The notes: generated by a model from the sequence alone, not told the origin. A DNA stretch of 64,000 nt from Parcubacteria group bacterium GW2011_GWC1_36_108 (GCA_000991245.1 LBRD01000006.1:103340-167339), one strand, 5' to 3'; positions 1,321 to 41,769 are shown, numbered from the stretch's first letter. Made by a program: numbers and translations.

Positions 1321-1947
1321 TTATGATAATGTTTTTTCAAATTCCAAAACTTTTTCAACAATAACCTTTTTCACAACATCCCAATTTTCTAAAGCAAACA
1401 TCATGGGCATCGGATCCCCTTCAGCATCTTCAAAAAAAGTCAGGCTTTTAAGAATGTGCAACATATTATATTGAATATTATTGAATTTTTTTTCGAAAAA
1501 ATTTATCAATTCTCGCAATTCATATTTTTTCAAGAGGATGTATAAATCAATAAAATCTTTCTTGCTTCCACGCGAAGAAATCGCATCAATTTTCATTGCA
1601 GCGATGTCGCGTTCATCTGCCATTTTTACACCCTCAAATTCCACCAGGGGAAACAGTAACTCATATTCATAACGCAAGAAACTAACTTTCACTCCATCAA
1701 TTGTACAGTGCAGTGTTCCATCCTCCTCACCAACAACAACCACACTTCCAATTTCAGGTAAAAGTTTTTTCAACTCAACAGGTGAAAAATTTTCTTTTGA
1801 AAAAAAATCTAAATCAATAGATTTTCGATGCCCAAGTTCAATAGCAAGCGCTGTTCCACCAGCAAGATAAAATGATTTCAGAATGTCAATTTTTTTTATC
1901 TTTTCAAAAACGCGCATTGTTTGCTCATCGATTGTTTCGTGGTACAT
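1321..1947 (-). CDS. Nucleotidyltransferase, AbiEii/AbiGii toxin-like family
   Basis: SFYLAGGTALAIELGHRKSIDLDFF N-terminal motif typical of the AbiEii/DUF1814 NTase fold; 208 aa. Confidence 0.6.
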   Translation of the reverse strand: MYHETIDEQTMRVFEKIKKIDILKSFYLAGGTALAIELGHRKSIDLDFFSKENFSPVELKKLLPEIGSVVVVGEEDGTLHCTIDGVKVSFLRYEYELLFPLVEFEGVKMADERDIAAMKIDAISSRGSKKDFIDLYILLKKYELRELINFFEKKFNNIQYNMLHILKSLTFFEDAEGDPMPMMFALENWDVVKKVIVEKVLEFEKTLS

Positions 1948-2192
1948 AAAATTTGATCTGAGATATTAAAATACACCTTCCAAAAATTTCGTGACTTTGC
2001 ATCAAACTGATCAATTGATTTCAAGAAAATTTCACGCAAAATTTCCGCTCCATACAGTTGAAATGCCCAGTTTAAATCATCAATGTCTCCCATACTCAAA
2101 ATACGTTTAACAATAAACGTTTTATGAGTCTGCGGATCAATAGTGCCAAGATCAACATCCCAAAAAAGTGATTGTTTTTCTAGTGTCTTCAT
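1896..2192 (-). CDS. Hypothetical protein; possible cognate partner (antitoxin-like) of the downstream NTase; overlaps it by ~50 nt
   Basis: 98-aa ORF overlapping the NTase start, a typical toxin-antitoxin arrangement; no confident domain recognised. Confidence 0.3.
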   Translation of the reverse strand: MKTLEKQSLFWDVDLGTIDPQTHKTFIVKRILSMGDIDDLNWAFQLYGAEILREIFLKSIDQFDAKSRNFWKVYFNISDQILCTTKQSMSKQCAFLKR

Positions 2193-2302
2193 AGCCCAAT
2201 TTTAGCACAAAACAAGACAAAATGCAACACAAAAAGTTAAAGATGGAATGGCACTAAGGACGATCTTCGGCGAATTCTCTTCTTCACTGCATATGCTGCC
2301 TG

Positions 2303-2929
2303 TTAAAGATTTCCCTGTTGAGAACCGTCCTCGGTTGGTGAATTTCCCTTTTTAGCGAGAACATAAAACCAATCCCTGTTATGAGCATGGAAAATACTGA
2401 CATAAAAACTAGTAAGCCCAATGTCAGTTATTTTTTTTAAAATATCTTTTTTTGTAAATTTATTGAAAATAAAGTTTTTCCGTTCTATATCATTTTTTTC
2501 TTTTTTCATAACAATAAAGCCAAAAACACCACCACAAGCCAAAATACGCTCAACCTCTAAAAGAGCTTTTTCAATGTCATCAGAAGTCAAATGCGTAAAT
2601 AAAGAAGATGAAGCCCATATTCCATTAAAATACTCATTTTGAAAATCAAGCGCTGTCATTTCCATTAAACTAAATTTTCCATTAAAATTTTTATTAGCAT
2701 AATCAATCATTTTTTCAGAAAAATCTATACCAATTCCATCAAAATTATTTTCAATAAAATAATTAACATCGCGCCCAGTTCCACTTCCGATATCCAAAAT
2801 TTTTCCTTTCTTAGGAATATATTCTAGAAATTTATCGAGCTTATCTTGCATAAGCACATCACCATTTTTTAAATATATTTCTAAATTTTCATTGTACCAT
2901 TTTTTTATTTTTGAATAAACTAATTTCAT
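2303..2929 (-). CDS. Class I SAM-dependent methyltransferase
   Basis: ILDIGSGTGRD motif I and acidic motif II (IGIDFS) of the Rossmann-fold MTases; 208 aa. Immediately downstream of the rSAM/precursor genes. Confidence 0.8.
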   Translation of the reverse strand: MKLVYSKIKKWYNENLEIYLKNGDVLMQDKLDKFLEYIPKKGKILDIGSGTGRDVNYFIENNFDGIGIDFSEKMIDYANKNFNGKFSLMEMTALDFQNEYFNGIWASSSLFTHLTSDDIEKALLEVERILACGGVFGFIVMKKEKNDIERKNFIFNKFTKKDILKKITDIGLTSFYVSIFHAHNRDWFYVLAKKGNSPTEDGSQQGNL

Positions 2930-2930
2930 A

Positions 2931-2964
2931 AAAAATAGAGGAGGAGCAAAGAGTTGCTCCTCCT
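2931..2964 (-). terminator. Stem-loop plus U-tract between the precursor peptide gene and the methyltransferase start (intrinsic terminator or attenuator)
   Basis: Minus strand reads AGGAGGAGCAA-ctct-TTGCTCCTCCT-ctattttttATG: a perfect 11-bp stem and a T-run ending at the MTase ATG (2929). Confidence 0.5.
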
Positions 2965-3011
2965 AATTAAAGTTAAATATTTCCATTATGGATTAGCCCA
3001 CCGGAGCTGAG

Positions 3012-3089
3012 CTATGTTCCACAGTTTTGACAACAAAAGGAAACGTTCTGATCCACTTGATTTTCATCAATATATATTGAAACAAACAT
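3012..3089 (-). CDS. Putative RiPP precursor peptide, 25 aa, Cys-rich C-terminus (MFVSIYIDENQVDQNVSFCCQNCGT)
   Basis: Not in the ORF track (<60 aa). Found by hand translation of the minus strand: aaaGGAGGTGAgagtcATG, a strong SD with 5-nt spacer. The ORF lies 77 nt downstream of the rSAM-SPASM stop and has three Cys in its last 8 residues. Stop is TAG at 3012-3014. Confidence 0.5.
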   Translation of the reverse strand: MFVSIYIDENQVDQNVSFCCQNCGT

Positions 3090-3165
3090 GACTCTCACCT
3101 CCTTTCATGGCGAAATATTATACTGCTACAAACCCCGTGCATCCATGGCGGACTAATAAACTTTG

Positions 3166-4458
3166 TCATGATACAAGAAACATCTTTTTGTCAAAAAGGA
3201 CTTTAAAAAATAATTCCCTGTCTTTCACTGACACGCCCTCCACATCTACCTCTTTCCAGCTGAAATACTTATTACCACTCAGTAAATTAAGAACAGTATT
3301 GTACCCAGCTTTATTAAGAAATACCAATTCATCATTATATTTCACAACACCACCAAATTCTTCCGCCCTAATTTGCACGCCTTTAACAAATTTCAGATTA
3401 TTAGGCAATTGAAAATCGAGTTGCGAGGTATTTTCTGCGAAGTTAACCTTTTCCGGTCCTGTCATCAATGGATCTTTCCCATGTATATCATTGTAGAATA
3501 TTTTTGCATCCATTCGACATCCTCCCGAACATCGCAAGAGATGTGGACAAATTCTACATTTTTCATAAAGAAAAGTTCCATCACGCCATTCCTGCATTGC
3601 AAACCAGCACTCTTGCAAAGACTTTTCAAACAAATTTCCATAGGTCATATCCGCATGAGCACATGGACGAATTGAACCATCAGGAGAAATAGAACAGTTA
3701 AATACACCGGCCGTACAATTCCTGCGAAGAAACTGTTGATATTTTTTCATATCACCAATAAAGCAAAGTGGATAGGTTTCCAATATTTCAACCCAAAGTC
3801 CCAAATCACTTTGAAGGTGCAGGAGTGCATCCATTGATTCTTTAATCTGCTGTGGTGTTGCTCTGTAATTTCTATACTCAGTATCTGGTGACGGAGCCAC
3901 TTTTGTTGCAGAAAAACGCAAAATCCCCAAGCTATGAGCCAACTTGCCTGTTTCATAAACTTGATGTGCATTTTCTTTACGCACCACCATATTTGCACTT
4001 GTTAAAACACCAGTTTCAGTCAGCATTAGAACATTAGAAAGAAGACGCTTATGAAAACCCTCACGTTGAATGATAACGTCATGAATTTCTGGTTGATGAG
4101 AAAGCAACGAAGTTAGAATGCCAACACTATTTTGATAAAAAAAGTCCGACATTTCCCTGGTAAGTAACTGCAAATTAGTATTACAATATACAACCAAGCC
4201 TAGTTCTTTTGCTTTTCGTATACCAGCCTTTAAAGTTTCTTTAAACATTAAAGGTTCACCACCAGTAAAGCATACCGACATTACTTTCCAACGCGCCAAT
4301 TCTTCCACCAATTTTTCCGCTTGACTTGGCAAAAGATGCTTAGAAACGGCTTTCTTAATATGTTGACATGCGCGATAACAATGAGTACAGACCTGGTTAC
4401 AATTGTCAGTAATTTCAATTTGCACTGATAATGGTGCACTTAAGGTTCTATATATCAT
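3166..4458 (-). CDS. Radical SAM / SPASM-domain peptide-maturase-like enzyme with ~95-aa C-terminal RRE(PqqD)-like extension
   Basis: CNQVCTHC (CxxxCxxC) radical-SAM motif and GGEPL; C-terminal SPASM cysteine array (CTAGVFNC...RPC...CW...CRICPHLLRCSGGC). Start reassigned to MIYRTLS (4458) because AAAGGAGGTGGA lies 5 nt upstream; the ORF-track start at 4500 has no SD. Confidence 0.85.
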   Translation of the reverse strand: MIYRTLSAPLSVQIEITDNCNQVCTHCYRACQHIKKAVSKHLLPSQAEKLVEELARWKVMSVCFTGGEPLMFKETLKAGIRKAKELGLVVYCNTNLQLLTREMSDFFYQNSVGILTSLLSHQPEIHDVIIQREGFHKRLLSNVLMLTETGVLTSANMVVRKENAHQVYETGKLAHSLGILRFSATKVAPSPDTEYRNYRATPQQIKESMDALLHLQSDLGLWVEILETYPLCFIGDMKKYQQFLRRNCTAGVFNCSISPDGSIRPCAHADMTYGNLFEKSLQECWFAMQEWRDGTFLYEKCRICPHLLRCSGGCRMDAKIFYNDIHGKDPLMTGPEKVNFAENTSQLDFQLPNNLKFVKGVQIRAEEFGGVVKYNDELVFLNKAGYNTVLNLLSGNKYFSWKEVDVEGVSVKDRELFFKVLFDKKMFLVS

Positions 4459-4514
4459 ATTGTCCACCTCCTTTGTGGGTTTCGTAAAATTAAAGAACAT
4501 TCATACTACGATGA

Positions 4515-4542
4515 AAATTAACATTCAAACAGGAAATTGTCA
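4515..4542 (-). promoter_or_regulatory. Putative sigma70-type promoter for the rSAM-precursor operon
   Basis: Minus strand reads TTGACA-16/17 nt-TAATTT, ~55 nt upstream of the rSAM start and downstream of the terminator of the preceding gene. Confidence 0.35.
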
Positions 4543-4585
4543 ATTCCACCCACTTAAATTCTAATCTGAATTGCAATTTTTCTTT

Positions 4586-4623
4586 AAAAAAAGCCGCTCC
4601 TCATATTAATAATGAGAAGCGGC
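4586..4623 (-). terminator. Rho-independent terminator after the lipoprotein gene; paralogous to 1234-1272
   Basis: gccgctcctcat / atgagaagcggc stem (1 mismatch), loop attaataa, followed by a U-tract on the minus strand; then the gcagggcggg block. Confidence 0.55.
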
Positions 4624-4666
4624 GATTGCAGGGCGGGATGGGAAGAAATAAAATTATTTCATTTCA

Positions 4667-6100
4667 TCATTTTACTGTAATGTTTTTGGTGTAGGATTCA
4701 ACGAATCCATCCTTCCACCGTTTTTCTTCGAGTTCGACGGTGGTCATTGTTGTGCCACCGATTTTGGTGCCGGAGGAAGCTTTGATGATTTTACCGTTCC
4801 AGCTGGTGGAGAAATCGTTGTTGATAACAACTTCTCCATTTGCATCTGAGACAGCACTTTGGAGCAATGGCTGCGGGAATGGCTGGATGTAATAATTCGC
4901 CGTGCCATTTTTACTGTTTGGATCAATAGTATTGGTCAGCGTTCCGAAAACTTTTACCTCGCCGACGACTGGGTTTCCAAGTGAATTGACGAGTCTCACT
5001 TTAACAACTTTTGGCAAGTTGTTAGCGATTTGCCACATATCAACCTGATGGTTAGCATTATTGGTTGCCAACCAAGCATTAAAGGGCGAGAATATTGTCC
5101 CGGTCCATAAACCTGGTTCTGTCATTGGATCTTTTGGATATAAAGCCCTAAGGCTATATGATTCCAAGATTGGGGCAACATTAGTTCGATCCTGAAAAGC
5201 AATACCATACCATTCGGGTACGCCACCCGCAAGGGTATGCATAAATTCTTGGCAAGTACTAAATATAACACTATCAAAATATGTTGGACTAAGTTTTTCT
5301 ATTTCACTTCTGCCAAGCAACACTGTCATTTCATCCTCCGCCTTATAAATGGTATAGTATTTCTTTCCATTCATAACATGACTAGTGGTAAAAGTATAGG
5401 AGTATTGCGAAGTGATATACGCGGGAATTTCGCTCCTATCCTTATATATGAAATAAACGAGTGTTGTCCCTCCGTAGGTCGGGCTGCCCGGAAAATCATT
5501 GTCATAATAATTCGACGGGTCTTCTTGAATCCCATCAAATTGGGCATTGGTATAACTCTTCACCTGCCCAACTTGATATCTTTTTGTTGTGTTCTTTGCA
5601 AAAACCGCACTAACCTCTGAGATTGCGGCTCCTGCATTTTTTACCACATCGGGATGCGCGTCATAAAAAGATTTGTTGACGAGCACAGGAATAACTTCCG
5701 GATTAAGCGCTGGCACTGGTGCCAGTTTCAAGGTTGTTACGGTCGGCGCAGAGATATTGACAACAGCTTCAAACTTTGCACTTGATCCTGCCGCATTTGT
5801 TGCGACAAGACTTGGACTGTGCGACCCAACAGCGTAAGTATGCACTGGGTTTTGTTCAGAGCTGGTTGCACCATCTTTGAAATCCCAGTACCAATTTGTT
5901 GGCGATTCTGTTGCTGTACCGTTAAACTTTGCTGTCAAGCCTGTCACCTCAACGGTAAACGAGGCTACAGGCACTTTACTTGTTACCGGTGGGGTTACTG
6001 GAGAAGAAGAATCTCCTCCACCTCCGCCACCACAAGCAGCAAAGAAAACCAGACAAACAAACAGCATTCCTAACTTCAGCCAATAAAATCTTGAGTTCAT
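4667..6100 (-). CDS. Secreted lipoprotein with PKD domain
   Basis: Signal peptide plus lipobox (LVFFAAC, then a Gly run); WYWDFKDGATSSEQNPVHTY is a classic PKD signature. Confidence 0.75.
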   Translation of the reverse strand: MNSRFYWLKLGMLFVCLVFFAACGGGGGGDSSSPVTPPVTSKVPVASFTVEVTGLTAKFNGTATESPTNWYWDFKDGATSSEQNPVHTYAVGSHSPSLVATNAAGSSAKFEAVVNISAPTVTTLKLAPVPALNPEVIPVLVNKSFYDAHPDVVKNAGAAISEVSAVFAKNTTKRYQVGQVKSYTNAQFDGIQEDPSNYYDNDFPGSPTYGGTTLVYFIYKDRSEIPAYITSQYSYTFTTSHVMNGKKYYTIYKAEDEMTVLLGRSEIEKLSPTYFDSVIFSTCQEFMHTLAGGVPEWYGIAFQDRTNVAPILESYSLRALYPKDPMTEPGLWTGTIFSPFNAWLATNNANHQVDMWQIANNLPKVVKVRLVNSLGNPVVGEVKVFGTLTNTIDPNSKNGTANYYIQPFPQPLLQSAVSDANGEVVINNDFSTSWNGKIIKASSGTKIGGTTMTTVELEEKRWKDGFVESYTKNITVK

Positions 6101-6467: not shown

Positions 6468-9299
6468 TTACGGTGCTACTTCTTGCCAAGGAATTTGACT
6501 TCCGCCAGTAGTAGTGGGCGCTGCTGCTGAACATGATGCGTTATCAGTGCAAGACTTTGTACAAGAATTTGTTGCCACACTAGTAGTATAAATATTGTCG
6601 CAAGTTGTGTTATCAGTACTACATGTCTTGTTAGTGCACCTTGTTACAACTGTTGCTGATCTTGTTCTTGATCCACCTGGACCAACACAGGTTACGGTAT
6701 AAGTTGCAGATGATGAGGATTGAGATACAGTTACATTTCCTCCTGCAATATTAGCAAAACCACCACCCATATTAGCACTTTTAGTGCAGCTTGTTGCATT
6801 AGAAACTGGAGACCAGGTCAAAGTAATATTTCTTGGCAATGCACTAATTTCAAGATCAATGATAGTTGGGTTTGCAGTTAAAGTAAATGATGGAAGAGAG
6901 GCTGGGCAGTCAGAAATACACGTTGCAGATGTTTCAGTTCCATTACAGCTTCCGTCGCCGCAAAAAGGAGCAACCGAACAATCAGAAGGACAAGTTGCAG
7001 ATGTTTCACCATTATTACAAATTCCGTCACCACAATATGGAGCTGGCGGAGGACAATCCTGAGAACATGTTACGTATGTTTCTGCTCCATTGCAAATTCC
7101 ATCATTGCAAACTGCTGTAACAGGAATAGCAGCTGTTTTAGTGGCGCTGCATTGAGGAGAATCAGCACCACCATTTTTACTCTTACAATACCAAGTCCAA
7201 GGACCAGATCCTGCAAAAGAAATAACATCCCCATAACTGCAAAGATTTGCACTTGTAGCTGTTAGTGTTGCAAATGTCCCACCAGAAGCTGATCCGCATA
7301 CACCGGCTGTTCCCGTTGTAGGGATGACGGGTGCAACTACTGTGTATGAAAAATATGAAGTTCCGTAAACCGCAGGACAATCAACTCTTTCATAACTCAA
7401 GGTATTAGCAATCAAAGGAGTACAACTATTAATTTCATAATCAATAGTATTTCCATATTCATCTATATAAGACGTTGGACATTTGTAACACTCCAAATTA
7501 TTGCCGTCAGTAAAAAAACCGGCTGTAAAAAAAGCTTGGTACGTTCCAGCAGTTGCAGGCACAGACATCCCGCTTGGATTATTATAATCAGGATTAGCGT
7601 CATATCCGAACTTTCTTCCAGCTGCAGTCACTAAACTCCCATCTGTTTTATTACTTCCCCACTTATATTCAACAAATCTGGTCGTATCAACATACCAACT
7701 AAAATATTGTGACACTGAGACTCTCATTTCCTCACCAGGAGCGTAGGTTGCTTTATTATAATTAATAGTAAATGTACCAGTTCTTAGTTTACTCTCTTGA
7801 TGAAATGATACCCAGTAGTAGAAAAGCTCGCCAGGATAAAGAGGATTAGCTGCAGGGGCATATTGAAGATTGTTAGCACGCATAGGTGCAGTCACAACCA
7901 AGGTGTCCGCGCTAGCCTCACCGGATCCAGCCAAGAAGATTCCTCCAGAGAAAAGCATCAACAATAAAAACATTCCCAGACCGCCGCGCAATTTGTCTTT
8001 GAAAACAAACACCAAAACCGCAATAAGCGATGCGAGTAGGAAAATAATCACAAACAGAATGTTTTTGGAATATTTAGCAGCTGCAACTTTTGTCTCAACG
8101 GGTTTTGATTTGATATTAAAAACATCATTGGACAATTTGTTTCCATCTTTATCAGTGATAGAAATCCTAAGAACTGGATCCAAACATTTTATTGATATTG
8201 GGATTGAAAAATTCAATTCTTTTTCTTCAGAACTTCTCGCCAGAGTTTGATTGATTTTTCCACATTCTTGTCCTGCGCCAGATTGAATCATAATATCAAT
8301 CTTTCCATCATCGAAAGTTGTTGACTCTTTGCGTAAGCTTGAAAATGAATCTGCACTTCCAGTCCAGAATAAATTAGCATTGGCGATATCGCCTTTTTCA
8401 TAGGCGTCTTTGTCTAAACGAATATTTTGAACAGTTGCGCTAAGACCGCGAACAACATAGTGAAATTCGACTTTGTTTGAAATTTGATTTCCATTTTTGT
8501 CTGCAAAAACCAAAATGCCTGAATATGCCTGAGGGTCGCTAGCTATCGATATTGGAAATTGAAATTCCTTTTTTTCACCTGGCTTAACAACAACCTCTTT
8601 TAATGAATCTTTTCTAATCTCTTTTCCAAAAGAAGAACGATAAAAAGTTGTCAGCGTTGGAGCAAGAGCGGTTTCTTGAGCAAAACTTCCAGCAACTGTG
8701 CAGTTTCCGAAAAGAGTTTCATTTTTTTCAACATCCACTCTCCCAAGCAATTCATATTTTTTCTGCGGGTCATTGTCCTCTTTCACAGTTAAGAAACAAT
8801 TAGCAACTTCCAGTGAATCTCCTTGCCCATCCAAAGTAACTTCGTTAAGTGTTGATATTGCCAAAGGAAGAGCATTACCATTTTTAGCATTCAAAACTGG
8901 AACGTATTTCCCTTTTAGATATTTTGGAGCTTCATATGTGATGTTGATTTTTTTTGTTTCATTTTCTCCTAAACTTACCACTTCGGATGAAAACACCTTC
9001 TCATCCGCAACAATATAATTGTTTTCATCAGTTCTTGTCAGGTTTATACCATAAATAACCTGGGGTTGAACACCAGTTCGATTTGAAAGATCAAATGAGA
9101 TCTTAAATACATTTCCTGCTTGCTCTGTTATTTTTGCGTCATATATGTTCACAGTAGCAACTGTGACCATCTGCAATCCCGCTTGCTCAGGTGCAGCAAC
9201 AGGCTCAACGGCAGAAACATTTTTGCTTAGCGAGAAAAATCCCACCAGCAAAAAAACAAACACCGCGACTCTTTTTAAGAAATACTTTTTTGTTTTCAT
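6468..9299 (-). CDS. Giant cell-surface protein (943 aa): signal peptide, internal TM hairpin, Cys-rich C-terminal ectodomain with CGDGxCN tandem repeats and a CGSASG...PWTWYC module
   Basis: N-terminal signal peptide MKTKKYFLKRVAVFVFLLVGFFSLSKNVSA; hydrophobic segments ILFVIIFLLASLIAVLVFVF and MFLLLMLFSGGIFLAGSG mid-protein; three ~25-aa repeats CGDGICNNGETSATCPSDC near the C-terminus. Confidence 0.8.
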   Translation of the reverse strand: MKTKKYFLKRVAVFVFLLVGFFSLSKNVSAVEPVAAPEQAGLQMVTVATVNIYDAKITEQAGNVFKISFDLSNRTGVQPQVIYGINLTRTDENNYIVADEKVFSSEVVSLGENETKKINITYEAPKYLKGKYVPVLNAKNGNALPLAISTLNEVTLDGQGDSLEVANCFLTVKEDNDPQKKYELLGRVDVEKNETLFGNCTVAGSFAQETALAPTLTTFYRSSFGKEIRKDSLKEVVVKPGEKKEFQFPISIASDPQAYSGILVFADKNGNQISNKVEFHYVVRGLSATVQNIRLDKDAYEKGDIANANLFWTGSADSFSSLRKESTTFDDGKIDIMIQSGAGQECGKINQTLARSSEEKELNFSIPISIKCLDPVLRISITDKDGNKLSNDVFNIKSKPVETKVAAAKYSKNILFVIIFLLASLIAVLVFVFKDKLRGGLGMFLLLMLFSGGIFLAGSGEASADTLVVTAPMRANNLQYAPAANPLYPGELFYYWVSFHQESKLRTGTFTINYNKATYAPGEEMRVSVSQYFSWYVDTTRFVEYKWGSNKTDGSLVTAAGRKFGYDANPDYNNPSGMSVPATAGTYQAFFTAGFFTDGNNLECYKCPTSYIDEYGNTIDYEINSCTPLIANTLSYERVDCPAVYGTSYFSYTVVAPVIPTTGTAGVCGSASGGTFATLTATSANLCSYGDVISFAGSGPWTWYCKSKNGGADSPQCSATKTAAIPVTAVCNDGICNGAETYVTCSQDCPPPAPYCGDGICNNGETSATCPSDCSVAPFCGDGSCNGTETSATCISDCPASLPSFTLTANPTIIDLEISALPRNITLTWSPVSNATSCTKSANMGGGFANIAGGNVTVSQSSSSATYTVTCVGPGGSRTRSATVVTRCTNKTCSTDNTTCDNIYTTSVATNSCTKSCTDNASCSAAAPTTTGGSQIPWQEVAP
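6887..7097. repeat. ~75-bp tandem coding repeats (x3) encoding CGDGxCNxxETxxTCxxDC modules
   Basis: Repeated peptide strings in the protein and in overlapping plus-strand ORFs 6784..7062 and 6887..7120 show DNA-level tandem duplication. Confidence 0.6.
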
Positions 9300-9449: not shown

Positions 9450-10247
9450 TTATTTTTCAAAACTTTCCAAATATTCTGGTAAATTCAAAATCCATTTCGC
9501 CTGCTCGGGATAAAACAAGAATCTCTCCACATCCTTTACTGCTTGAGGCAAATCACTTTTAATAGCTTGCTGTTTTAAAAATTCAATCAATTCCTTCCTA
9601 TCATTAATTGCAATCCCCTTTTCCTTAAAAATTGCATAATTTGGCTCGATATTTTTTTGACTCAAAAACCATACCAAATCATAAAAATCGCGTCCTTTTT
9701 GATAAGGACGAAAGATAATCGCTAAAATCTTTTGTGCAAAAAGCGTTTCCAGGGTATTAACCATCATTGGAAATCGCTCATTAAAACTATCAGTAAATTT
9801 TGTCTGAGTTTCAATATTTTTATATGGATTATAATCAATTTCAAATTTTACTAAAATCTTTTCATCCTTTTGACCACTCAAGCCAAATTCTCTCAAAACA
9901 TTTTTAAATCTAAAGAACACAATGTGAATATTTTGTGTAGTTTTTGTCCGAATATCAACCTGAAAACCTTGCAACTCCAACTTTTTGCTGATTTCCTCAG
10001 CCAACTTTTCCAAATCAAATTCCTCTTTTTTAATCAAATCGAAATCCAAATCTTCCGAAAAACGATTAATGTTATATGCAAAACGCAAACATGTACCACC
10101 AAGAAAAGAAAGGCTATCATTATACGCGCTAAGCGAAAGAGCTTTCAAGATTTGTGTTTGTAAATATTCCAATAAAATATTTCGCTGTTGCCAGGGAATA
10201 TTTTTTTCCTCAGCATATTTTTTGAAAAATTCTTTATTTGGCAACAT
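9450..10247 (-). CDS. AbiEii/AbiGii-family nucleotidyltransferase toxin (type IV TA)
   Basis: LSFLGGTCLRFAYNINRFSEDLDFD motif typical of the AbiEii NTase; 265 aa; overlaps the upstream AbiEi-like gene. Confidence 0.8.
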   Translation of the reverse strand: MLPNKEFFKKYAEEKNIPWQQRNILLEYLQTQILKALSLSAYNDSLSFLGGTCLRFAYNINRFSEDLDFDLIKKEEFDLEKLAEEISKKLELQGFQVDIRTKTTQNIHIVFFRFKNVLREFGLSGQKDEKILVKFEIDYNPYKNIETQTKFTDSFNERFPMMVNTLETLFAQKILAIIFRPYQKGRDFYDLVWFLSQKNIEPNYAIFKEKGIAINDRKELIEFLKQQAIKSDLPQAVKDVERFLFYPEQAKWILNLPEYLESFEK

Positions 10248-10857
10248 AATATTTAATAAAGTTGTTAGTTAAAAATAATACTTTTTTATTCTCAAATGCT
10301 TTTGCAAATTTCAAAAGTTTTTTGCCATCAAATTTAAAATCTTCATTAAAACGATAACCCTGAAATTGCTGCTGACCGCCATTTAGGATATTACGATTAA
10401 GGTATAAAAAATCAACTACGGCTTTTTCAGGTAATGCTAAATTGAATGAAACGCCATTAGTCTTTTTTGTTTCAAATCCTCCAAATGCCTCCTTTTTAAT
10501 TTTTTGATAACTAAAATTGCCCACCGGTGTTGCAAACTTTTTTGTTTTTCTTGTTGTCACGGAGGTCACAGTAAAGACAGCCTCTGGAATAATTCCGTAA
10601 AAATTCAAAGCCATTTCCATACTAATATAAGAAGGTGCATAAATTTTTGTCGCAAATTCCATCATATCAAGCTTATTTTTCATTTCAGCCACAATATAAA
10701 GACCTCTTCTAAGCATAATTAAATGGCCCTTATTGATCCAGTTTTTAAGATTAACAAGGGTAGTGCTTGTGAAATTACTGCCCAAAATAAGCCTTAATTC
10801 TTTCGTTTCAAAACACGGCAGCTCTTCAATTTTTTTCCTGAATTCAAAATAATTCAT
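10234..10857 (-). CDS. AbiEi-family antitoxin/transcriptional regulator (type IV TA)
   Basis: APSYISMEMALNFYGIIPE matches the conserved AbiEi core; gene order and 14-nt overlap with the NTase are typical of abiEi-abiEii. Confidence 0.75.
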   Translation of the reverse strand: MNYFEFRKKIEELPCFETKELRLILGSNFTSTTLVNLKNWINKGHLIMLRRGLYIVAEMKNKLDMMEFATKIYAPSYISMEMALNFYGIIPEAVFTVTSVTTRKTKKFATPVGNFSYQKIKKEAFGGFETKKTNGVSFNLALPEKAVVDFLYLNRNILNGGQQQFQGYRFNEDFKFDGKKLLKFAKAFENKKVLFLTNNFIKYYVAK

Positions 10858-12767: not shown

Positions 12768-15700
12768 TTACACTGCACGTATTTTATCTATAATCCCCAT
12801 TAATTTTTCCGCCTCATCTTTCGGAATGCGAAATTTTTCAGGTGTATTAATGTCGCTGAGAATTTCGATTTGATGCTTTACATTTTCCAGCATTGCATCA
12901 GCGGCTACACTGTGACCTTTTTCCGATTGTTTTTTAGCGTTGTCTATTTTATTAATCAATCGATCTTTAACTGTCTTGTCGACATCAAGAGAGCTGATAA
13001 TTTTTTCAAAAATTCCCAACAAATCCTCTTTTTTAATCACTTCTCCTGATCGAAAAATCGCATCAGTTTCCCCATCATTGTCCACATCTATTTTCATTTC
13101 ACCAACACTTTCAGAAATTAAAACTTCCGCTTTCATTCCTTGCATAACAGGAATATTAGAAAAGGTGGTCGTTTTAACATCCTGATTACCAATAATTTCA
13201 TCAATTTCAAAAGTAAATGTTCCCAAATCTTCTCCTTTAAGGACAACGGTTTGAGCAAGATTTCCTTCCGATCCGGCATATTTTGTTTCGCCAAATTCCA
13301 TATAATACGAATTGGGAATCTGTTTTTCAAAAAATTTCAAATCAGAAATTGGATTTTTGTTTTCAATAAGTCCAGTATGCCTTCCATCTTTATCATAAAT
13401 ATGCAATGCTACGGGAGAATGCAGACGATATCGGAGACTTTTATCTTCATTTTTTACTTCCGGTTTTTCAGTCGAGATATAGTTTACTAACTCTTTTTTA
13501 TCCTGGATAATATTTTTAATGAAATCTTGCAATGGTTTGATTTCTAAGATATCCGCATGTTCCCTATTTATTTTTAAATTTGAAAGACGATTATAGCGAT
13601 TAAGATTAACATAATATTTTTCCGCATTACCATCCATTTCCACTGCGCTTGGAACGACCACTGTTTCGTCTCCATCTTGTGTGAAAAGCAATGAGCGATC
13701 GAGATTACTCAATTCATCAGGACAAAAAATAAAGTCGCAATCATCATATTTTATGCCACTAATCGTGTCCAATCCCCAACCTGCGATCTGCATAACCTCC
13801 ATACCTGTAGGAGCTTGCCACGAATCCAACGATTCATGGGTTTTCTCCGCTTGAGAGAAAAAATTATCTTTAAGTACATTTGGCGAATCTGTATCATCAA
13901 CGTCAGGCTCGGTGCGATTGCCATCGTCTCCAAGTAGAAATTTTTTAAACTCATCAAAATTATCGATATCATTTCCGAAGATTGATGGGAAGTCATAAAT
14001 ACTTTTCACATCTGTATCAAATTCAATAACAGGACTCTGAACAACATCAAAATATTTTTTTGACGGAAGAAGATTGTACGCACTAATCATATTCTCTCCA
14101 AACCCACGAGCAGTCTTCTTGTCGAGAATCAGTCCATAAAGAAAATTAGACCCATCTCCGTGGAGAAGCCCTGCTGCAGCCTTGGGTGTGCCTAACTGCG
14201 GCGTGGCAACCATAATAATACGATCCACGAGCTTTTCCTCTCCGCTTTTTTTCAAACTATCAACAATAACTTTTGCAAGCAAGCCGCCATTACTATGTCC
14301 GATAAGTGTCACTTTTCCTGTTTTTGATTCCTTTGCTGAATTTCTAATTTGATCAAGCACGTTCTCCACGCTTCCATCTTCAAGTTTAGTTCCATTATCA
14401 ACCACGTCCTCTAAGGGCTTTCGCCAATCATACGCAAAAGCTTGCCATTTATTAATGACACCATCTGCAACAATATTATCCATTGATGCCATAAAACCTT
14501 TATAAACATTATTTATTCCATATGCTTCATCCAAAATATCACGCGTATAAATGCCTGGGTCATTGCTAGATCCGTCATTTTGATTCATATATAACTGCTC
14601 AACATCTTCATTATGATTAGTTGGCTCCCATAATTGATCCTCATCGCCATCCGAATCTTTCCTGTATAAACGACTCGCCTGATGCCCCGGCAAAAACATC
14701 ACATTAGAATAGCAATTTTCCTGACAGATAGGCTCTGCTTCAAATTCAAATTTATTAACCCGAGGATAATAATCGGATCCCCCGCCAAAAACATATGAGC
14801 TATCGCAAATATTATCATTATTCAAATCTCTACAGTTAGCTTCATTTTTTTTCCAAAAATTTCCACCTATTGGAAGATCAAGATTAAAAGAATTATTTAT
14901 TGAAGAATTAATTTGAAACACTGCCGCACCCGTTCCCATAATATTATTCCCATAAAATTGATTGCTATCGCTATAGCTCAAATATGCACGTTCAAAAATG
15001 CTATTTTTAATTGTATTATTACTAGATCCTTCAAAAATAATTTTTATGTCTTCGCTAGTTGAAGCTATATTTTCAATAAGAGAATTAGCGGTATTTTTAA
15101 AATATATCAGTGCTTTGTTTTCAGATAAAGATAGATTCTTAAGAGTTACATTTTGACAATTTGTGCAATAAAAAATACCTACGTCATCTAGGTTGTCATA
15201 TATTTCATTTATTACATTTTTTATAAAATAAACCGCCTTATCTTCAACTGTATTGCTTGTATCAATATCATTATCTTCTACTTTATTACCTGATATATAA
15301 AAATTATGTTCCCCATTTCCAGACATAACATTACCAAAAAGCATGCTACTGCTGCTTTCAATCATTTCGATACCATAATATGGATTATTTTTTATCTTAT
15401 TGTTTTTTAGAATATCTCTGTTTCCACCATAAATGTAGATTCCGCCTTCTAAATTTTCAAACACTTCATTATTCTCATAAACATTACTTGTATCATAAGT
15501 ATAACCATAATTTTGAGAACTTTCGCTAATACCATTTTTATTTTCTGGACCTACAATATTATCAGTAAAAATATTTTTCGTGGAATAAAAAAGATACAAA
15601 CCAGCATTGGAATTTTTAGTTATAACATTGTTTGAAATAACATTCGCACCTGAATGATCCAAATAAGCCCCATATCGATTACCCGTTAGTGTGGCAAAAC

Positions 15701-16412
15701 TTATATTATTAAGACCAGAATAATATGAAAGATAAATCCCATAGAAAAATCCCGTTATTGTTACATTTTTAATTGTAATACCTTTTTTACCATTAACAAT
15801 AAAAACGCCAGTGCCGGTATTTTTTCCAGTAATAATATGACCGTTACCATCCAGCGTTACGTTATCACTTTTTATCTGAACAGAATCATTAACATCTTGA
15901 TTCAAAGTGCATGTTTTTAGTGTATCATTCCAAACACCAATACTTGAACAATCTCCTCCATTAACATCGGTAATAAATTTTGTGCTTTTGCGAGGCTGTA
16001 TGAATATTAAATGACGCTGGCTGATATCTTGAATGAAAGAAAATGAACCTTTTTCATCTGATACAAAAGATTGGTAAGTGTCATAGTTATCTTGATATTT
16101 ATAATAAGTCGTGTTTGGCAAAAATCCGGAAATAATCAAACTGGAGGAAATTGCCGCATTCAAATTTTCCGTTTCCAAAACAACCATTTCCGGTGCAGAT
16201 TCCATCCTGACTTTAATATTTTCGCTACTATCCAATGTTATGTTTAAATATTCACTATCAACGATTTCAAAATGCATCCCAGTTCCACTCACAGATCCAG
16301 GAAACAATTTTTCCTCATCCGCCATAACCGAAGATGTGGAAAATAAAAATATTAAAATTAGCACAATCATTATCGTAAAATATCTCGTATTTTTATCAAA
16401 AAATGTTTTCAT
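12768..16412 (-). CDS. Giant secreted protein (1214 aa): signal peptide, right-handed parallel beta-helix (PbH1) repeats, alpha/beta-hydrolase (GHSxG lipase-like) domain
   Basis: N-terminal signal peptide; long series of repeats of the NxxxTxNxIxxN type (e.g. NVISNNVITKNSNAGLYL); TLIGHSNGGLL nucleophile-elbow motif near residue 700. Confidence 0.8.
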   Translation of the reverse strand: MKTFFDKNTRYFTIMIVLILIFLFSTSSVMADEEKLFPGSVSGTGMHFEIVDSEYLNITLDSSENIKVRMESAPEMVVLETENLNAAISSSLIISGFLPNTTYYKYQDNYDTYQSFVSDEKGSFSFIQDISQRHLIFIQPRKSTKFITDVNGGDCSSIGVWNDTLKTCTLNQDVNDSVQIKSDNVTLDGNGHIITGKNTGTGVFIVNGKKGITIKNVTITGFFYGIYLSYYSGLNNISFATLTGNRYGAYLDHSGANVISNNVITKNSNAGLYLFYSTKNIFTDNIVGPENKNGISESSQNYGYTYDTSNVYENNEVFENLEGGIYIYGGNRDILKNNKIKNNPYYGIEMIESSSSMLFGNVMSGNGEHNFYISGNKVEDNDIDTSNTVEDKAVYFIKNVINEIYDNLDDVGIFYCTNCQNVTLKNLSLSENKALIYFKNTANSLIENIASTSEDIKIIFEGSSNNTIKNSIFERAYLSYSDSNQFYGNNIMGTGAAVFQINSSINNSFNLDLPIGGNFWKKNEANCRDLNNDNICDSSYVFGGGSDYYPRVNKFEFEAEPICQENCYSNVMFLPGHQASRLYRKDSDGDEDQLWEPTNHNEDVEQLYMNQNDGSSNDPGIYTRDILDEAYGINNVYKGFMASMDNIVADGVINKWQAFAYDWRKPLEDVVDNGTKLEDGSVENVLDQIRNSAKESKTGKVTLIGHSNGGLLAKVIVDSLKKSGEEKLVDRIIMVATPQLGTPKAAAGLLHGDGSNFLYGLILDKKTARGFGENMISAYNLLPSKKYFDVVQSPVIEFDTDVKSIYDFPSIFGNDIDNFDEFKKFLLGDDGNRTEPDVDDTDSPNVLKDNFFSQAEKTHESLDSWQAPTGMEVMQIAGWGLDTISGIKYDDCDFIFCPDELSNLDRSLLFTQDGDETVVVPSAVEMDGNAEKYYVNLNRYNRLSNLKINREHADILEIKPLQDFIKNIIQDKKELVNYISTEKPEVKNEDKSLRYRLHSPVALHIYDKDGRHTGLIENKNPISDLKFFEKQIPNSYYMEFGETKYAGSEGNLAQTVVLKGEDLGTFTFEIDEIIGNQDVKTTTFSNIPVMQGMKAEVLISESVGEMKIDVDNDGETDAIFRSGEVIKKEDLLGIFEKIISSLDVDKTVKDRLINKIDNAKKQSEKGHSVAADAMLENVKHQIEILSDINTPEKFRIPKDEAEKLMGIIDKIRAV

Positions 16413-40004: not shown

Positions 40005-40141
40005 AATAATTTTATAAAAATAAATTTCTAATTCCCAATTTCCAATTCCTAATAAAAATTTTAATGCCCAATTCCCAAATTTTGAATTCAAGCATTTGAA
40101 ATTTTGTTGGAAATTTGATATTAGAAATTAGTAATTTTGCA

Positions 40142-41620: not shown

Positions 41621-41769
41621 AAAGTTGTATTAAAAAATTCTAAAGGCTAAATTTTAAAGTCTAATTCAATTCTAAATTCTAAAGTTTAAATTAAAATGCA
41701 AGTCCTTTTATACTTTTCACTTTAGATTTGATTTAGTATTTAGTACTTAGACTTTAGCCTTTAATGATC

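What the first reader, a model, noticed from the sequence alone, without database searches (positions are those of the whole stretch)
2303..4545. Candidate RiPP cluster: radical-SAM/SPASM maturase, hidden 25-aa Cys-rich peptide gene, methyltransferase
The minus strand carries, in order: a promoter-like TTGACA-N17-TAATTT; a radical-SAM enzyme with CxxxCxxC, GGEPL and a full SPASM cysteine array; then, 77 nt after its stop, an unannotated 25-codon ORF (MFVSIYIDENQVDQNVSFCCQNCGT) with a near-perfect SD (aaaGGAGGTGAgagtcATG) and three Cys in the last 8 residues; then a perfect 11-bp stem plus U-tract; then a class-I SAM methyltransferase. This layout is the hallmark of sactipeptide/ranthipeptide-type RiPP clusters. 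The peptide does not resemble known SCIFF, subtilosin or thuricin precursors, so the product would be a new class member if real.
Basis: partly seen in the sequence, partly recalled or inferred. Interest (0 to 1): 0.85.

Follow-up and report, generated by a model that had tools for sequence, protein, structure and literature searches.

The report
Hidden radical-SAM peptide cluster in CPR bacteria
A tiny, never-annotated 25-codon gene next to a radical-SAM enzyme in a Candidate-Phyla-Radiation bacterium is a real, conserved precursor of a modified peptide, and it defines a large, unnamed family of such peptide-making gene pairs in these minimal-genome bacteria.

Summary
On the minus strand lie a promoter-like site, a 430-aa radical-SAM/SPASM enzyme (3166-4458), a 25-codon ORF with a strong Shine-Dalgarno site (3012-3089), an 11-bp terminator hairpin (2939-2964) and a class-I methyltransferase (2303-2929).

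The small ORF is a real gene. A homologous ORF follows the enzyme gene in every complete FCCQ-type locus checked. Its core is (N/D/E)-x-x-F-C-C-Q-x-(G)-C, the Cys-Cys pair is invariant, synonymous sites are saturated and pN is 0.07-0.23.

The enzyme's last ~85 residues fold as a RiPP recognition element. Its nearest solved relatives are the peptide maturases SkfB, SuiB, CteB and PqqE, at about 20% identity. It reaches no curated NCBIfam subfamily cut-off.

The methyltransferase is co-conserved in 11 loci. More distant family members carry other Cys/Asp-rich peptides, sometimes next to peptidases. The family exceeds 150 clusters at 50% identity, and every named member is Patescibacteria.

The chemistry is not shown; Cys thioethers are an inference. 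I found no paper or curated model describing this family, so I rate it a new variant of a known kind.

The parts
4515..4543 (-). Promoter-like site TTGACA-N17-TAATTT, 56 nt upstream of the rSAM start
   Evidence: Read from the sequence. The generic scan did not list it because the -10 matches only 3 of 6 positions. A perfect TTGACA with 16-17 nt spacing to TAnnnT occupies the same position in 8 of 12 homologous loci.
4593..4623 (-). Terminator hairpin of the upstream PKD-domain gene; marks the 5' boundary of the cluster
   Evidence: 12-bp stem followed by TTTTTTT.
3166..4458 (-). Radical-SAM/SPASM peptide maturase, 430 aa. CX3CX2C at residues 20-27, GGEPL at 66-70, seven invariant Cys in the SPASM half
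   Evidence: Pfam Radical_SAM and SPASM. No NCBIfam model reached its cut-off. AlphaFold2 model pLDDT 92. Best structural matches are SkfB, SuiB, anSME, CteB, TigE and PqqE. Cys conservation.
3169..3426 (-). C-terminal RiPP-recognition-element (PqqD-like winged-helix) domain of the maturase, residues ~345-430
3095..3105 (-). Shine-Dalgarno site aaaGGAGGTGA, 5 nt before the peptide ATG
   Evidence: An equivalent AAGGAGGTG-type site precedes the peptide ORF in 11 of the 12 FCCQ-type loci.
3012..3089 (-). Precursor peptide gene, 25 codons plus stop: MFVSIYIDENQVDQNVSFCCQNCGT. Proposed leader FVSIY, proposed core N-V-S-F-C-C-Q-N-C-G-T
   Evidence: Conserved downstream of rSAM homologues. pS is saturated and pN is 0.07-0.23. 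Never called as a gene. It is the only FCCQ ORF in the window.
2930..2964 (-). Intrinsic terminator: 11-bp perfect stem, 4-nt loop, then CTCTA and TTTTTT
   Evidence: z -4.3. A hairpin plus T-tract lies 38-80 nt after the peptide stop in 16 of 17 loci, with unrelated sequences.
2303..2929 (-). Class-I SAM-dependent methyltransferase, 208 aa; its ATG directly abuts the terminator T-tract
   Evidence: Methyltransf_25, E 6e-17. No NCBIfam cut-off reached. An orthologue of 29-68% identity occupies the same position in 11 loci.

Best explanation
This is a three-gene cluster for a ribosomally synthesised, post-translationally modified peptide (RiPP) in a Candidatus Moranbacteria genome (Patescibacteria/CPR).

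Proposed sequence of events:
1. A promoter at about 4543-4515 drives one transcript carrying the radical-SAM/SPASM maturase and then the 25-aa precursor. Most transcripts end at the hairpin at 2964-2930.
2. The maturase's C-terminal RRE domain binds the precursor's N-terminal leader (F-V-S-I-Y/F).
3. The radical-SAM core, with its SPASM auxiliary Fe-S clusters, modifies the C-terminal core (N/D/E)-x-x-F-C-C-Q-x-(G)-C.
4. The most likely chemistry is one or more intramolecular thioether cross-links from the invariant Cys-Cys pair, and/or the third Cys, to a carbon of a nearby residue. The best acceptor candidates are the conserved Asn/Asp/Glu four residues before the first Cys and the conserved Gln.
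5. The methyltransferase, made from read-through transcripts, adds a methyl group to the modified peptide. The site is unknown; a free thiol or the C-terminal carboxylate are candidates.

Shown here: gene reality and conservation, domain architecture, RRE fold, co-conservation of the methyltransferase, and promoter and terminator architecture.

Inferred: leader-RRE binding, thioether chemistry, the methylation target, and export or function of the product.

My probabilities: genuine rSAM-modified peptide system about 0.85; the modification involves Cys thioethers about 0.5; the methyltransferase acts on the peptide about 0.6.
For: Organism: P0001 is 100% identical and is named Candidatus Moranbacteria GW2011_GWC2_37_73. 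All other named homologues are CPR lineages.

Precursor:
- An ORF sits at the same position in loci L001-L010 and L023-L027, where rSAM identity is 41-78%. The Cys-Cys pair is invariant, and F, Q and the third Cys are nearly invariant.
- In every FCCQ-type core read, the residue four positions before the first Cys is N, D or E.
- Further called homologues include P0129, which has two tandem cores.
- Synonymous sites are saturated while pN is 0.07-0.23, and 11 of the 12 FCCQ-type ORFs keep a strong SD.

Enzyme:
- Radical_SAM and SPASM domains.
- High-confidence model closest to SkfB, SuiB, CteB, anSME, TigE and PqqE.
- C-terminal domain with an RRE fold and a PqqD Pfam hit in a homologue.

Wider family:
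- More than 150 clusters at 50% identity still score at least 377 bits over the full length.
- Distant members (30-40% identity) are likewise followed by small Cys/Asp-rich ORFs. Some are followed by Peptidase_MA_2 or transglutaminase-like genes, which are plausible leader peptidases.

Transcription signals: the terminator after the peptide is conserved in 16 of 17 loci, and the TTGACA promoter in 8 of 12.

Methyltransferase: co-conserved in 11 loci.

Thioether inference: known ranthipeptide maturases link Cys to Asp (freyrasin) or Asn (NxxcA) (PMC8326336). The Cys/Asp-rich cores of distant members resemble such substrates.
Against: - No mass-spectrometric or expression data exist. The chemistry is entirely inferred.
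- The enzyme scores far below the cut-offs of every curated thioether-maturase model tested: PapB 65 of 340 bits, StsB 58 of 625, AlbA 50 of 850, SkfB 53.5 of 300.
- SPASM enzymes also make C-C and C-O cross-links, epimerise residues and decarboxylate.
- One family member lacks the third Cys (L007...ACCQTTGR) and one lacks the Gln (L002...FCCIHGC). Neither residue can therefore be an obligatory partner.
- No peptidase or exporter lies next to the cluster in this window, so leader removal and secretion are unsupported here.
- The methyltransferase is absent from L003/L008, L004 and L010. It also lies beyond a strong terminator and has no SD, so its link to the peptide rests on co-occurrence only.
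Confidence: 0.8

Rival explanations
1. The enzyme-precursor pair is real but the chemistry is different. The rSAM does something other than Cys thioether formation on the FCCQ core, for example a C-C or C-O cross-link involving Phe or Gln, epimerisation, Cys oxidation of the anSME type, or a transformation of the vicinal Cys-Cys pair not yet described.
For: The nearest solved relatives span several chemistries. SuiB makes a Lys-Trp C-C bond, PqqE a Glu-Tyr C-C bond, anSME oxidises Cys to formylglycine, and TigE makes cyclopropylglycine. No thioether-maturase model reaches its cut-off. An invariant vicinal Cys-Cys pair is not, to my knowledge, a feature of characterised sacti- or ranthipeptide cores. 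The canonical last SPASM Cys is missing.
Against: The only invariant core residues are Cys. Distant family members have Cys/Asp-rich cores typical of thioether substrates. SkfB, a thioether-forming enzyme, is the top hit by both sequence and structure.
Confidence: 0.3
2. The modified peptide is not a secreted natural product. It is an intracellular, peptide-derived redox cofactor or metal-binding factor, used by the cell itself in the manner of mycofactocin or PQQ.
For: The cluster is minimal and has no adjacent exporter or peptidase in this window. The mycofactocin maturase MftC and PqqE are among the better NCBIfam and PDB matches. The core is very short and Cys-rich. The family is widespread in minimal-genome bacteria.
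Against: Core sequences differ greatly between branches of the family (FCCQ-type, poly-Cys/Asp, CxC repeats). That is typical of specialised metabolites and not of a universal cofactor. No partner oxidoreductases are conserved nearby. Some relatives carry adjacent peptidases. The MftC and PqqE cut-offs are not reached.
Confidence: 0.12
3. The rSAM is a cofactor-biosynthesis enzyme of the MoaA/NirJ/AhbD type, as the public annotation says, and the small ORF is incidental.
For: The source annotation reads 'MoaA/NirJ family Fe-S oxidoreductase'. NirJ2 and AhbD are the top NCBIfam hits by E-value.
Against: Those hits reach 85-106 bits against cut-offs of 500. The enzyme has an RRE domain. The adjacent ORF is conserved under purifying selection across the FCCQ-type loci. 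No haem, d1 or Moco genes are adjacent.
Confidence: 0.03
4. The 25-codon ORF is a chance open frame, or a non-coding spacer feature.
For: It is very short, and no gene caller has ever called it.
Against: The ORF is positionally conserved in the homologous loci and has an invariant CC motif. Synonymous sites are saturated while pN is 0.07-0.23. 11 of the 12 FCCQ-type ORFs have a strong SD. Longer homologues are called as genes.
Confidence: 0.01

Closest known systems
Ranthipeptides / SCIFF systems (CteB, PapB-freyrasin, NxxcB)
   Same: A minimal pairing of a radical-SAM/SPASM maturase with a short Cys-rich precursor. Often there is no dedicated exporter or peptidase nearby. The proposed acceptors (Asn, Asp, Glu, Gln close to Cys) parallel the Cys-Asp links of freyrasin and the Asn-x-x-Cys link of NxxcA (PMC8326336). 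CteB is among the best structural matches.
   Different: The enzyme scores 65 bits against the 340-bit cut-off of the PapB model, and the SCIFF maturase model is not among its 25 best matches. The peptides match no SCIFF or other curated target model. The RRE is C-terminal, whereas from my own knowledge it is N-terminal in CteB, PapB and SuiB. The precursor gene follows the enzyme gene. The core is about 10 residues with an invariant vicinal Cys-Cys. A methyltransferase is a conserved partner.
Sactipeptide maturases SkfB, AlbA and StsB
   Same: SkfB is the top hit by both sequence profile (E 5.5e-31) and Foldseek (E 3.4e-16). These are thioether-forming rSAM enzymes acting on leader-containing peptides.
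   Different: Identity is about 20%. The NCBIfam scores of 50-58 bits fall far short of the cut-offs of 300-850. The precursors are much longer, with donor and acceptor residues arranged as a hairpin. SkfB has an N-terminal [2Fe-2S] domain, and AlbA has an N-terminal RRE (own knowledge).
Mycofactocin (MftA/MftB/MftC) and PQQ (PqqA/PqqD/PqqE) pathways
   Same: A very short precursor is modified at its extreme C-terminus by an rSAM/SPASM enzyme that relies on a PqqD-type RRE. PqqE and MftC are among the better matches. The C-terminal domain resembles PqqD.
   Different: Here the RRE is fused to the C-terminus of the enzyme instead of being a separate protein. The cores differ: Cys-Cys here, Gly-Val-Tyr in mycofactocin and Glu...Tyr in PQQ. 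The downstream pathway genes are absent. The curated cut-offs are not met (75 of 265 bits and 68 of 381 bits).
RiPP pathways with a tailoring class-I methyltransferase (for example LahSB, the lanthipeptide C-terminal carboxyl methyltransferase; daptide and enteropeptin methyltransferases)
   Same: A small class-I SAM methyltransferase is encoded next to the precursor and the core maturase. LahSB appears among the weak PDB matches (31.5 bits).
   Different: The similarity is at the level of the generic methyltransferase fold. The daptide methyltransferase model scores 23 of 175 bits. The substrate atom is unknown.

Membership tests
Radical-SAM/SPASM peptide-modifying enzymes (superfamily level) | CX3CX2C radical-SAM cluster motif and a Radical_SAM domain | tested here: met
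   C20, C24 and C27 are invariant in 37 homologues. Pfam PF04055 scores 58 bits against a 29.5-bit cut-off.
Radical-SAM/SPASM peptide-modifying enzymes (superfamily level) | SPASM domain with the CX9-15GX4C ... CX2CX5CX3C ... C cysteine array | tested here: met
   PF13186 scores 27.2 bits against a 21.5-bit cut-off. C248-X12-G261-X4-C266 and C301-X2-C304-X5-C310-X3-C314 are invariant, as is C232. The usual final Cys after the last gap is absent.
Radical-SAM/SPASM peptide-modifying enzymes (superfamily level) | RiPP recognition element (PqqD-like) for leader binding | tested here: met
RiPP biosynthetic gene cluster | A genetically encoded precursor peptide adjacent to the maturase and conserved with it | tested here: met
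RiPP biosynthetic gene cluster | A post-translationally modified product is actually made | not testable with these tools
   Needs co-expression and mass spectrometry.
SCIFF / ranthipeptide (TIGR03973 peptide, TIGR03974 maturase; PapB family NF047865) | Maturase scores above the curated model cut-off | tested here: not met
   PapB model: 65 bits against a 340-bit cut-off. The SCIFF maturase model is not among the best 25 hits, so it scores below about 46 bits.
SCIFF / ranthipeptide (TIGR03973 peptide, TIGR03974 maturase; PapB family NF047865) | Precursor matches the SCIFF (six Cys in forty-five residues) model | tested here: not met
   No NCBIfam hit for the window peptide or for 9 homologues, apart from two sub-threshold chance-level hits. 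The peptide has 3 Cys in 25 residues.
SCIFF / ranthipeptide (TIGR03973 peptide, TIGR03974 maturase; PapB family NF047865) | Non-alpha (C-beta or C-gamma) thioether cross-links in the product | not testable with these tools
   Needs NMR or MS/MS of the product.
Sactipeptides (AlbA, SkfB, StsB and similar) | Maturase belongs to a curated sactisynthase model | tested here: not met
   StsB 58 of 625 bits, SkfB 53.5 of 300, AlbA 50 of 850.
Sactipeptides (AlbA, SkfB, StsB and similar) | Cys-S to C-alpha thioether in the product | not testable with these tools
   Needs a chemical structure.
   anSME matches only at fold level, with 19% identity. It is not among the top NCBIfam hits. The adjacent peptide has no CxPxR motif.
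NirJ / AhbC / AhbD haem-d1 and haem-b rSAM enzymes (the source annotation) | Score above the equivalog cut-off | tested here: not met
   NirJ2 106 of 500 bits, AhbD 85 of 500, AhbC 59 of 650, NirJ 51 of 515.
Mycofactocin and PQQ maturases (MftC, PqqE) | Score above the equivalog cut-off, with the cognate precursor | tested here: not met
   MftC 74.7 of 265 bits, PqqE 67.9 of 381. The precursor has no GVY or E-x3-Y core.

The most novel reading that the evidence does not exclude
The FCCQ peptides and their maturases form a RiPP class confined to Patescibacteria/CPR. In this reading the invariant vicinal Cys-Cys pair undergoes a radical-SAM transformation not yet described, that is, not a standard sactionine or ranthionine link, and the product is then methylated. 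The product would serve in the episymbiotic lifestyle of these minimal-genome bacteria, for example in host interaction, signalling or metal handling. The evidence does not exclude this: no curated model fits the enzyme or the peptide, the RRE sits at an unusual position, the last SPASM Cys is missing, and the family is large and diverse.
Probability: 0.25. Interest if true: 0.85.

Novelty: new variant of a known kind. Interest (0 to 1): 0.62.

Why it matters
CPR/Patescibacteria have genomes of about 1 Mb, are almost all uncultured, and are usually reported to encode few natural-product clusters. Here a large, uncurated enzyme family is tied to a precursor gene so small that gene callers miss it. 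The family exceeds 150 clusters at 50% identity, and every named member is a CPR lineage.

This gives a concrete, easily synthesised three-gene system for heterologous expression. It provides a precursor motif, (N/D/E)xxFCCQx(G)C, for mining further members. It also offers a way to ask what specialised peptides do for obligate episymbionts.

The C-terminal RRE on a SPASM enzyme and the invariant Cys-Cys core could also reveal new radical-SAM chemistry.

If the product turns out to be an ordinary thioether peptide, the result is still a new ranthipeptide- or sactipeptide-like subfamily and a correction of the public annotation 'MoaA/NirJ family Fe-S oxidoreductase'.

Tried and rejected
- The broad 37-sequence alignment could not seed a locus search because no stretch was conserved enough. 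A narrower 11-sequence alignment worked but returned only 4 genome loci and 8 metagenome loci.
- A PDB profile search with the C-terminal domain gave only generic winged-helix hits such as eS25, SelB and TFE. These were not used as evidence for an RRE.
- NCBIfam scans of ten precursor peptides gave no meaningful hit.
After reordering the alignment it found only 13 called homologues, because most of these ORFs are never called.
- Literature searches found no description of this family: Patescibacteria, CPR or Parcubacteria combined with radical SAM, RiPP, ranthipeptide or SPASM; the motif strings SFCCQ, FCCQT, FCCQS and FCCQN; and 'bioinformatic atlas'. The JACS 'atlas' of rSAM RiPPs is not in the searchable library, so I cannot exclude that the family appears there as an uncharacterised node.
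- Rfam found no known RNA in the intergenic regions.
- GC composition does not mark the cluster as foreign.
- I considered whether the SD-like AGGAGG in the 5' arm of the terminator serves the methyltransferase start, and dropped the idea. It is not conserved in other loci and would be sequestered in the stem.
Full report
**1. The observation**

I read window 1800-5000 on the minus strand and listed the ORFs.

The radical-SAM gene is an ORF at 3166-4500. Its functional start is the ATG at 4458, which is preceded by aaaGGAGGTGG. This gives a 430-aa protein, identical to the database protein P0001. The protein contains CNQVCTHC and GGEPL.

A 25-codon ORF follows at 3012-3089, encoding MFVSIYIDENQVDQNVSFCCQNCGT.

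A perfect 11-bp stem with a 4-nt loop (2964-2939) is followed by TTTTTT. The 96-nt spacer folds with a z-score of -4.3 against shuffles.

The methyltransferase ATG at 2929 touches the T-tract. That ORF runs to 2303 and encodes 208 aa.

The promoter-like TTGACA-N17-TAATTT lies at 4543-4515. The generic scan did not list it because its -10 element matches only 3 of 6 positions.

A strong terminator at 4623-4593 ends the upstream PKD-domain gene, so the cluster has a clean 5' boundary.

**2. Identity of the two enzymes**

Pfam finds Radical_SAM (58 bits) and SPASM (27.2 bits, cut-off 21.5) in the large protein. It finds Methyltransf_25 (E 6e-17) in the small one.

Against NCBIfam the rSAM hits 75 models but none near its curated cut-off:

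| Model | Score (bits) | Cut-off (bits) |
|---|---|---|
| NirJ2 | 106 | 500 |
| GeoRSP | 97 | 400 |
| AhbD | 85 | 500 |
| WgkB | 76 | 650 |
| MftC | 75 | 265 |
| PqqE | 68 | 381 |
| PapB | 65 | 340 |
| StsB | 58 | 625 |
| SkfB | 53.5 | 300 |
| AlbA | 50 | 850 |

The enzyme therefore belongs to the SPASM superfamily but to no named subfamily. The public name 'MoaA/NirJ family Fe-S oxidoreductase' is a generic label.

The methyltransferase also reaches no cut-off. Its best hit is the DVU_1556 family at 52 of 155 bits.

**3. Source organism and size of the family**

P0001 is 100% identical and comes from Candidatus Moranbacteria bacterium GW2011_GWC2_37_73. The word-indexed search found 182 homologues of about 430 aa. 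Every one that carries an organism name is from a CPR lineage: Patescibacteria, Paceibacterota, Staskawiczbacteria, Yonathbacteria, Saccharimonadales, WWE3 or Parcubacteria.

A profile search of 1.84 billion 50%-identity representatives shows how large the family is. The 150th best hit still scores 377 bits (E 1e-107) and covers the profile to its C-terminal end. The family therefore exceeds 150 clusters at 50% identity.

**4. Is the 25-codon ORF a gene?**

I fetched homologous loci from genome and metagenome contigs and by exact-protein look-up. I then read the DNA after each rSAM stop.

In every locus whose rSAM is at least 43% identical to the window's, and whose contig extends past the rSAM stop, a small ORF with its own SD follows directly. 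Examples:

| Locus | Peptide |
|---|---|
| L001 | VFVSIYIGENKADQNISFCCQSCGT |
| L005 | MFVSIYVEAEQADQNVSFCCQSCGT |
| L023 | MFVSIYIDEDKADQNVSFCCQTCGT |
| L024 | MFVSIFINANKVEQNVSFCCQNCGT |
| L025 | VFVSIFTKEDAKKSDQNASFCCQCCGT |
| L009/L027 | MFVTIFEDETPKLKDASEARKNAAFCCQTGCDR |
| L002 | ...LESIFEPNEVNAVQEDNKIDYDNSFCCIHGCDE |
| L003/L008 | ...LTVSIFKDDRGGNTKNASFCCQSGCDA |
| L004 | ...LFTVVFEDARGAEPHEYDATFCCQTGCVDI |
| L026 | MLETIFDQEGSDIFDQNASFCCQQCDM... |
| L007 | MFVSIFTRKDAKKADQNAAACCQTTGR |

L010 (rSAM 41% identical) carries a more divergent core, ...LARVAFCSDPCWCY.

In the alignment of these 12 peptides the Cys-Cys pair is invariant. The preceding Phe, the following Gln and the third Cys are each present in at least 90% of sequences. 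The residue four positions before the first Cys is Asn, Asp or Glu in every core I read.

Among the five 25-aa orthologues, synonymous differences are saturated (pS 0.5 to more than 1) while pN is 0.07-0.23. 11 of the 12 ORFs are preceded by an AAGGAGGTG-type SD.

The exact 25-aa sequence, and four close orthologues, are absent from a collection of about 15 billion predicted proteins. Longer homologues are present only as 'hypothetical protein'. A profile search recovered just 13 called homologues.

The ORF is therefore real, conserved and systematically missed by annotation. It occurs only once in the window.

**5. A recognition domain on the enzyme**

AlphaFold2, run with a 37-sequence alignment, gives a confident model with pLDDT 92 and pTM 0.91.

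The best Foldseek matches in the PDB are SkfB, SuiB, anSME, CteB, TigE, PqqE and ChlB, at 14-20% identity. The PDB sequence-profile search gives a similar set, led by SkfB, SuiB and PqqE.

After the SPASM domain come about 85 further residues, predicted as four beta-strands followed by two long helices. Modelled alone, this segment has pLDDT 94.

The architecture is therefore rSAM, then SPASM, then RRE. From my own knowledge, in the characterised SPASM maturases the RRE is either N-terminal (SuiB, CteB, AlbA) or a separate protein (PqqD, MftB). The review PMC8326336 mentions a C-terminal RRE only for the proteusin epimerases, which lack a SPASM domain.

The peptides share an N-terminal hydrophobic motif: F-V-S-I-Y/F, L-E-T-I-F, T-V-S-I-F. 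This is the natural candidate for the RRE-bound leader. That is an inference.

**6. The Fe-S ligands**

C20, C24 and C27 are invariant. So are C232, C248, C266, C301, C304, C310 and C314. C255 is present in 70% of sequences.

The pattern CX12GX4C ... CX2CX5CX3C is canonical SPASM. However, no conserved Cys follows C314, where the last ligand usually sits. D329 is conserved in 35 of 37 sequences.

One auxiliary cluster may therefore have an open or non-Cys site. This is an inference, and I could not test it.

**7. The methyltransferase and the transcription signals**

tblastn with the window's methyltransferase finds an orthologue of 29-68% identity directly after the peptide in 11 loci. It is missing in L003/L008, L004 and L010. 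It is therefore a frequent but dispensable partner, which fits a tailoring enzyme.

A hairpin plus T-tract lies 38-80 nt after the peptide stop in 16 of 17 loci, including the distant ones, and the sequences are unrelated.

A perfect TTGACA with 16-17 nt to a TAnnnT sits 53-79 nt upstream of the rSAM start in 8 of 12 loci.

The conserved unit is thus promoter, rSAM, SD-peptide, terminator. The methyltransferase would be expressed by read-through. In the window and in several other loci its ATG abuts the T-tract and has no SD.

**8. The wider family**

rSAM homologues at 30-40% identity are also followed by small Cys-rich ORFs, or in L022 preceded by one. The cores are different:

| Locus | Peptide |
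|---|---|
| L019 | ...SCDSDCNTDNDHACDCYGCDTCDANKE |
| L017 | ...ECDDCDTDSDHSCDSCDYDCQGVA |
| L013 | ...CHTCDSCDNTTDGCDCYTQPCDCDETPCDDNSCDKDD |
| L015 | ...ACYCHCACACHVIKVK |

In place of the methyltransferase, some of these loci carry Peptidase_MA_2 (L020, L021) or a weakly transglutaminase-like protein (L019). These are plausible leader peptidases.

Hypervariable Cys/Asp-rich cores under one enzyme family are typical of RiPP natural products.

**9. Mechanism**

Shown:
- a conserved enzyme-precursor pair;
- a recognition-element fold on the enzyme;
- two-cluster SPASM machinery;
- a co-conserved methyltransferase.

Inferred:
- The RRE binds the FVSIY leader.
- The 5'-deoxyadenosyl radical abstracts a hydrogen from a core residue.
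- A Cys thiolate, possibly bound to an auxiliary cluster, captures the resulting radical to give a thioether.

The acceptor candidates are the conserved Asn/Asp/Glu at position -4 and the Gln at position +1 after the Cys-Cys pair. This is by analogy with the Cys-Asp links of freyrasin and the Asn-x-x-Cys link of NxxcA (PMC8326336).

Because L007 lacks the third Cys and L002 lacks the Gln, the indispensable chemistry must involve the Cys-Cys pair.

The methyl acceptor is unknown. A weak PDB hit to LahSB, the lanthipeptide methyltransferase (31.5 bits), is only a lead.

My probabilities are about 0.85 for a genuine rSAM-modified peptide, about 0.5 for thioether chemistry, and about 0.6 for the methyltransferase acting on the peptide.

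**10. Comparison with known systems and novelty**

The system works like a ranthipeptide/SCIFF or sactipeptide cluster. It fails the sequence membership tests for SCIFF/PapB, StsB/AlbA/SkfB, MftC, PqqE, anSME and NirJ/Ahb. The peptides match no curated target family.

It differs from those systems in four ways:
- the position of the RRE;
- the gene order, with the precursor after the enzyme;
- the short core with an invariant vicinal Cys-Cys;
- the methyltransferase partner.

Full-text searches found no description of it. The subscription-only rSAM-RiPP atlas could not be checked.

I rate it a new variant of a known kind: a real, previously unannotated RiPP precursor family apparently confined to CPR bacteria, with its chemistry still open.

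**11. Verdict**

My interest score is 0.62. Genome mining turns up new rSAM-RiPP families regularly, which limits the surprise. Three things raise it above routine: the CPR setting, the size of the uncurated family, and a missed micro-gene with an unusual invariant core that can be tested directly.

Noticed in passing
L006:2797-2900 versus L026:1470-1592 and protein P0125: In L006 the precursor has an in-frame TAG inside the core (SFCCQ*CDM). The near-identical L026 and P0125 read CAG (SFCCQQCDM). This could be a nonsense allele, a sequencing error or a truncated variant. L026 also differs from P0125 by a frameshift in the follower region.
   Followed up: partly
Protein P0129: One precursor homologue carries two tandem cores after a single leader...EAAFCCQCGCDAYPGVRKNASFCCQTGCDR. 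This suggests the maturase can process repeated cores.
   Followed up: no
Proteins P0125, P0133, P0135 and P0136: A subgroup of precursors has a follower of about 20 aa after the core. It ends in a copy of the leader-like motif, for example N-terminal MFETVF and C-terminal NPMFEDIF. This may be a remnant of a tandem duplication or a second recognition site.
   Followed up: no
window 2927-2940 (and the equivalent place in L001, L005, L009, L023, L024): The methyltransferase ATG directly abuts the terminator T-tract, and no Shine-Dalgarno sequence precedes it. Methyltransferase expression would depend on terminator read-through and SD-independent initiation. This may set a low methyltransferase-to-peptide ratio.
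   Followed up: partly
window 3166-4458, residues 314-330 of the rSAM: The canonical last Cys of the SPASM motif is absent across the family, while D329 is conserved in 35 of 37 sequences and position 317 is Asp or Glu in 36 of 37. An auxiliary cluster may have a non-Cys or open ligand site.
   Followed up: partly
window 1321-2192 and 9450-10857: Two AbiE-type toxin-antitoxin modules flank the region: DUF6922 with AbiEii at 1321-2192, whose ORFs overlap by 52 nt, and AbiEi with AbiEii at 9450-10857. Between the RiPP cluster and the second module lie a PKD-domain protein (4667-6100) and a 943-aa protein with no family hit (6468-9299).
   Followed up: no
window 38445-45386: A membrane-bound, complex-I-like or group-4 [NiFe]-hydrogenase-like module: a fused 30-kDa/49-kDa (NuoC/D-like, NiFeSe_Hases) subunit and two Proton_antipo_M subunits. 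This is notable in a minimal CPR genome.
   Followed up: no
window 12768-16412: A 1214-aa protein combining a right-handed beta-helix (NosD-like) region with an LCAT-type lipase/acyltransferase domain. It may be a surface or host-interaction enzyme.
   Followed up: no
L020:4404-5183, L021:4232-4876, L019:5161-5667: In distant branches of the rSAM family the methyltransferase is replaced by Peptidase_MA_2 zinc peptidases or by a weakly transglutaminase-like protein next to the precursor. These are candidate leader peptidases. In L020 the peptidase gene lies between the rSAM and the 65-aa precursor candidate.
   Followed up: partly
L021:683-1264: A separate 193-aa ORF with a SPASM-domain hit lies upstream of the rSAM homologue in L021. 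It may be a fragment or a second Fe-S protein in that cluster.
   Followed up: no
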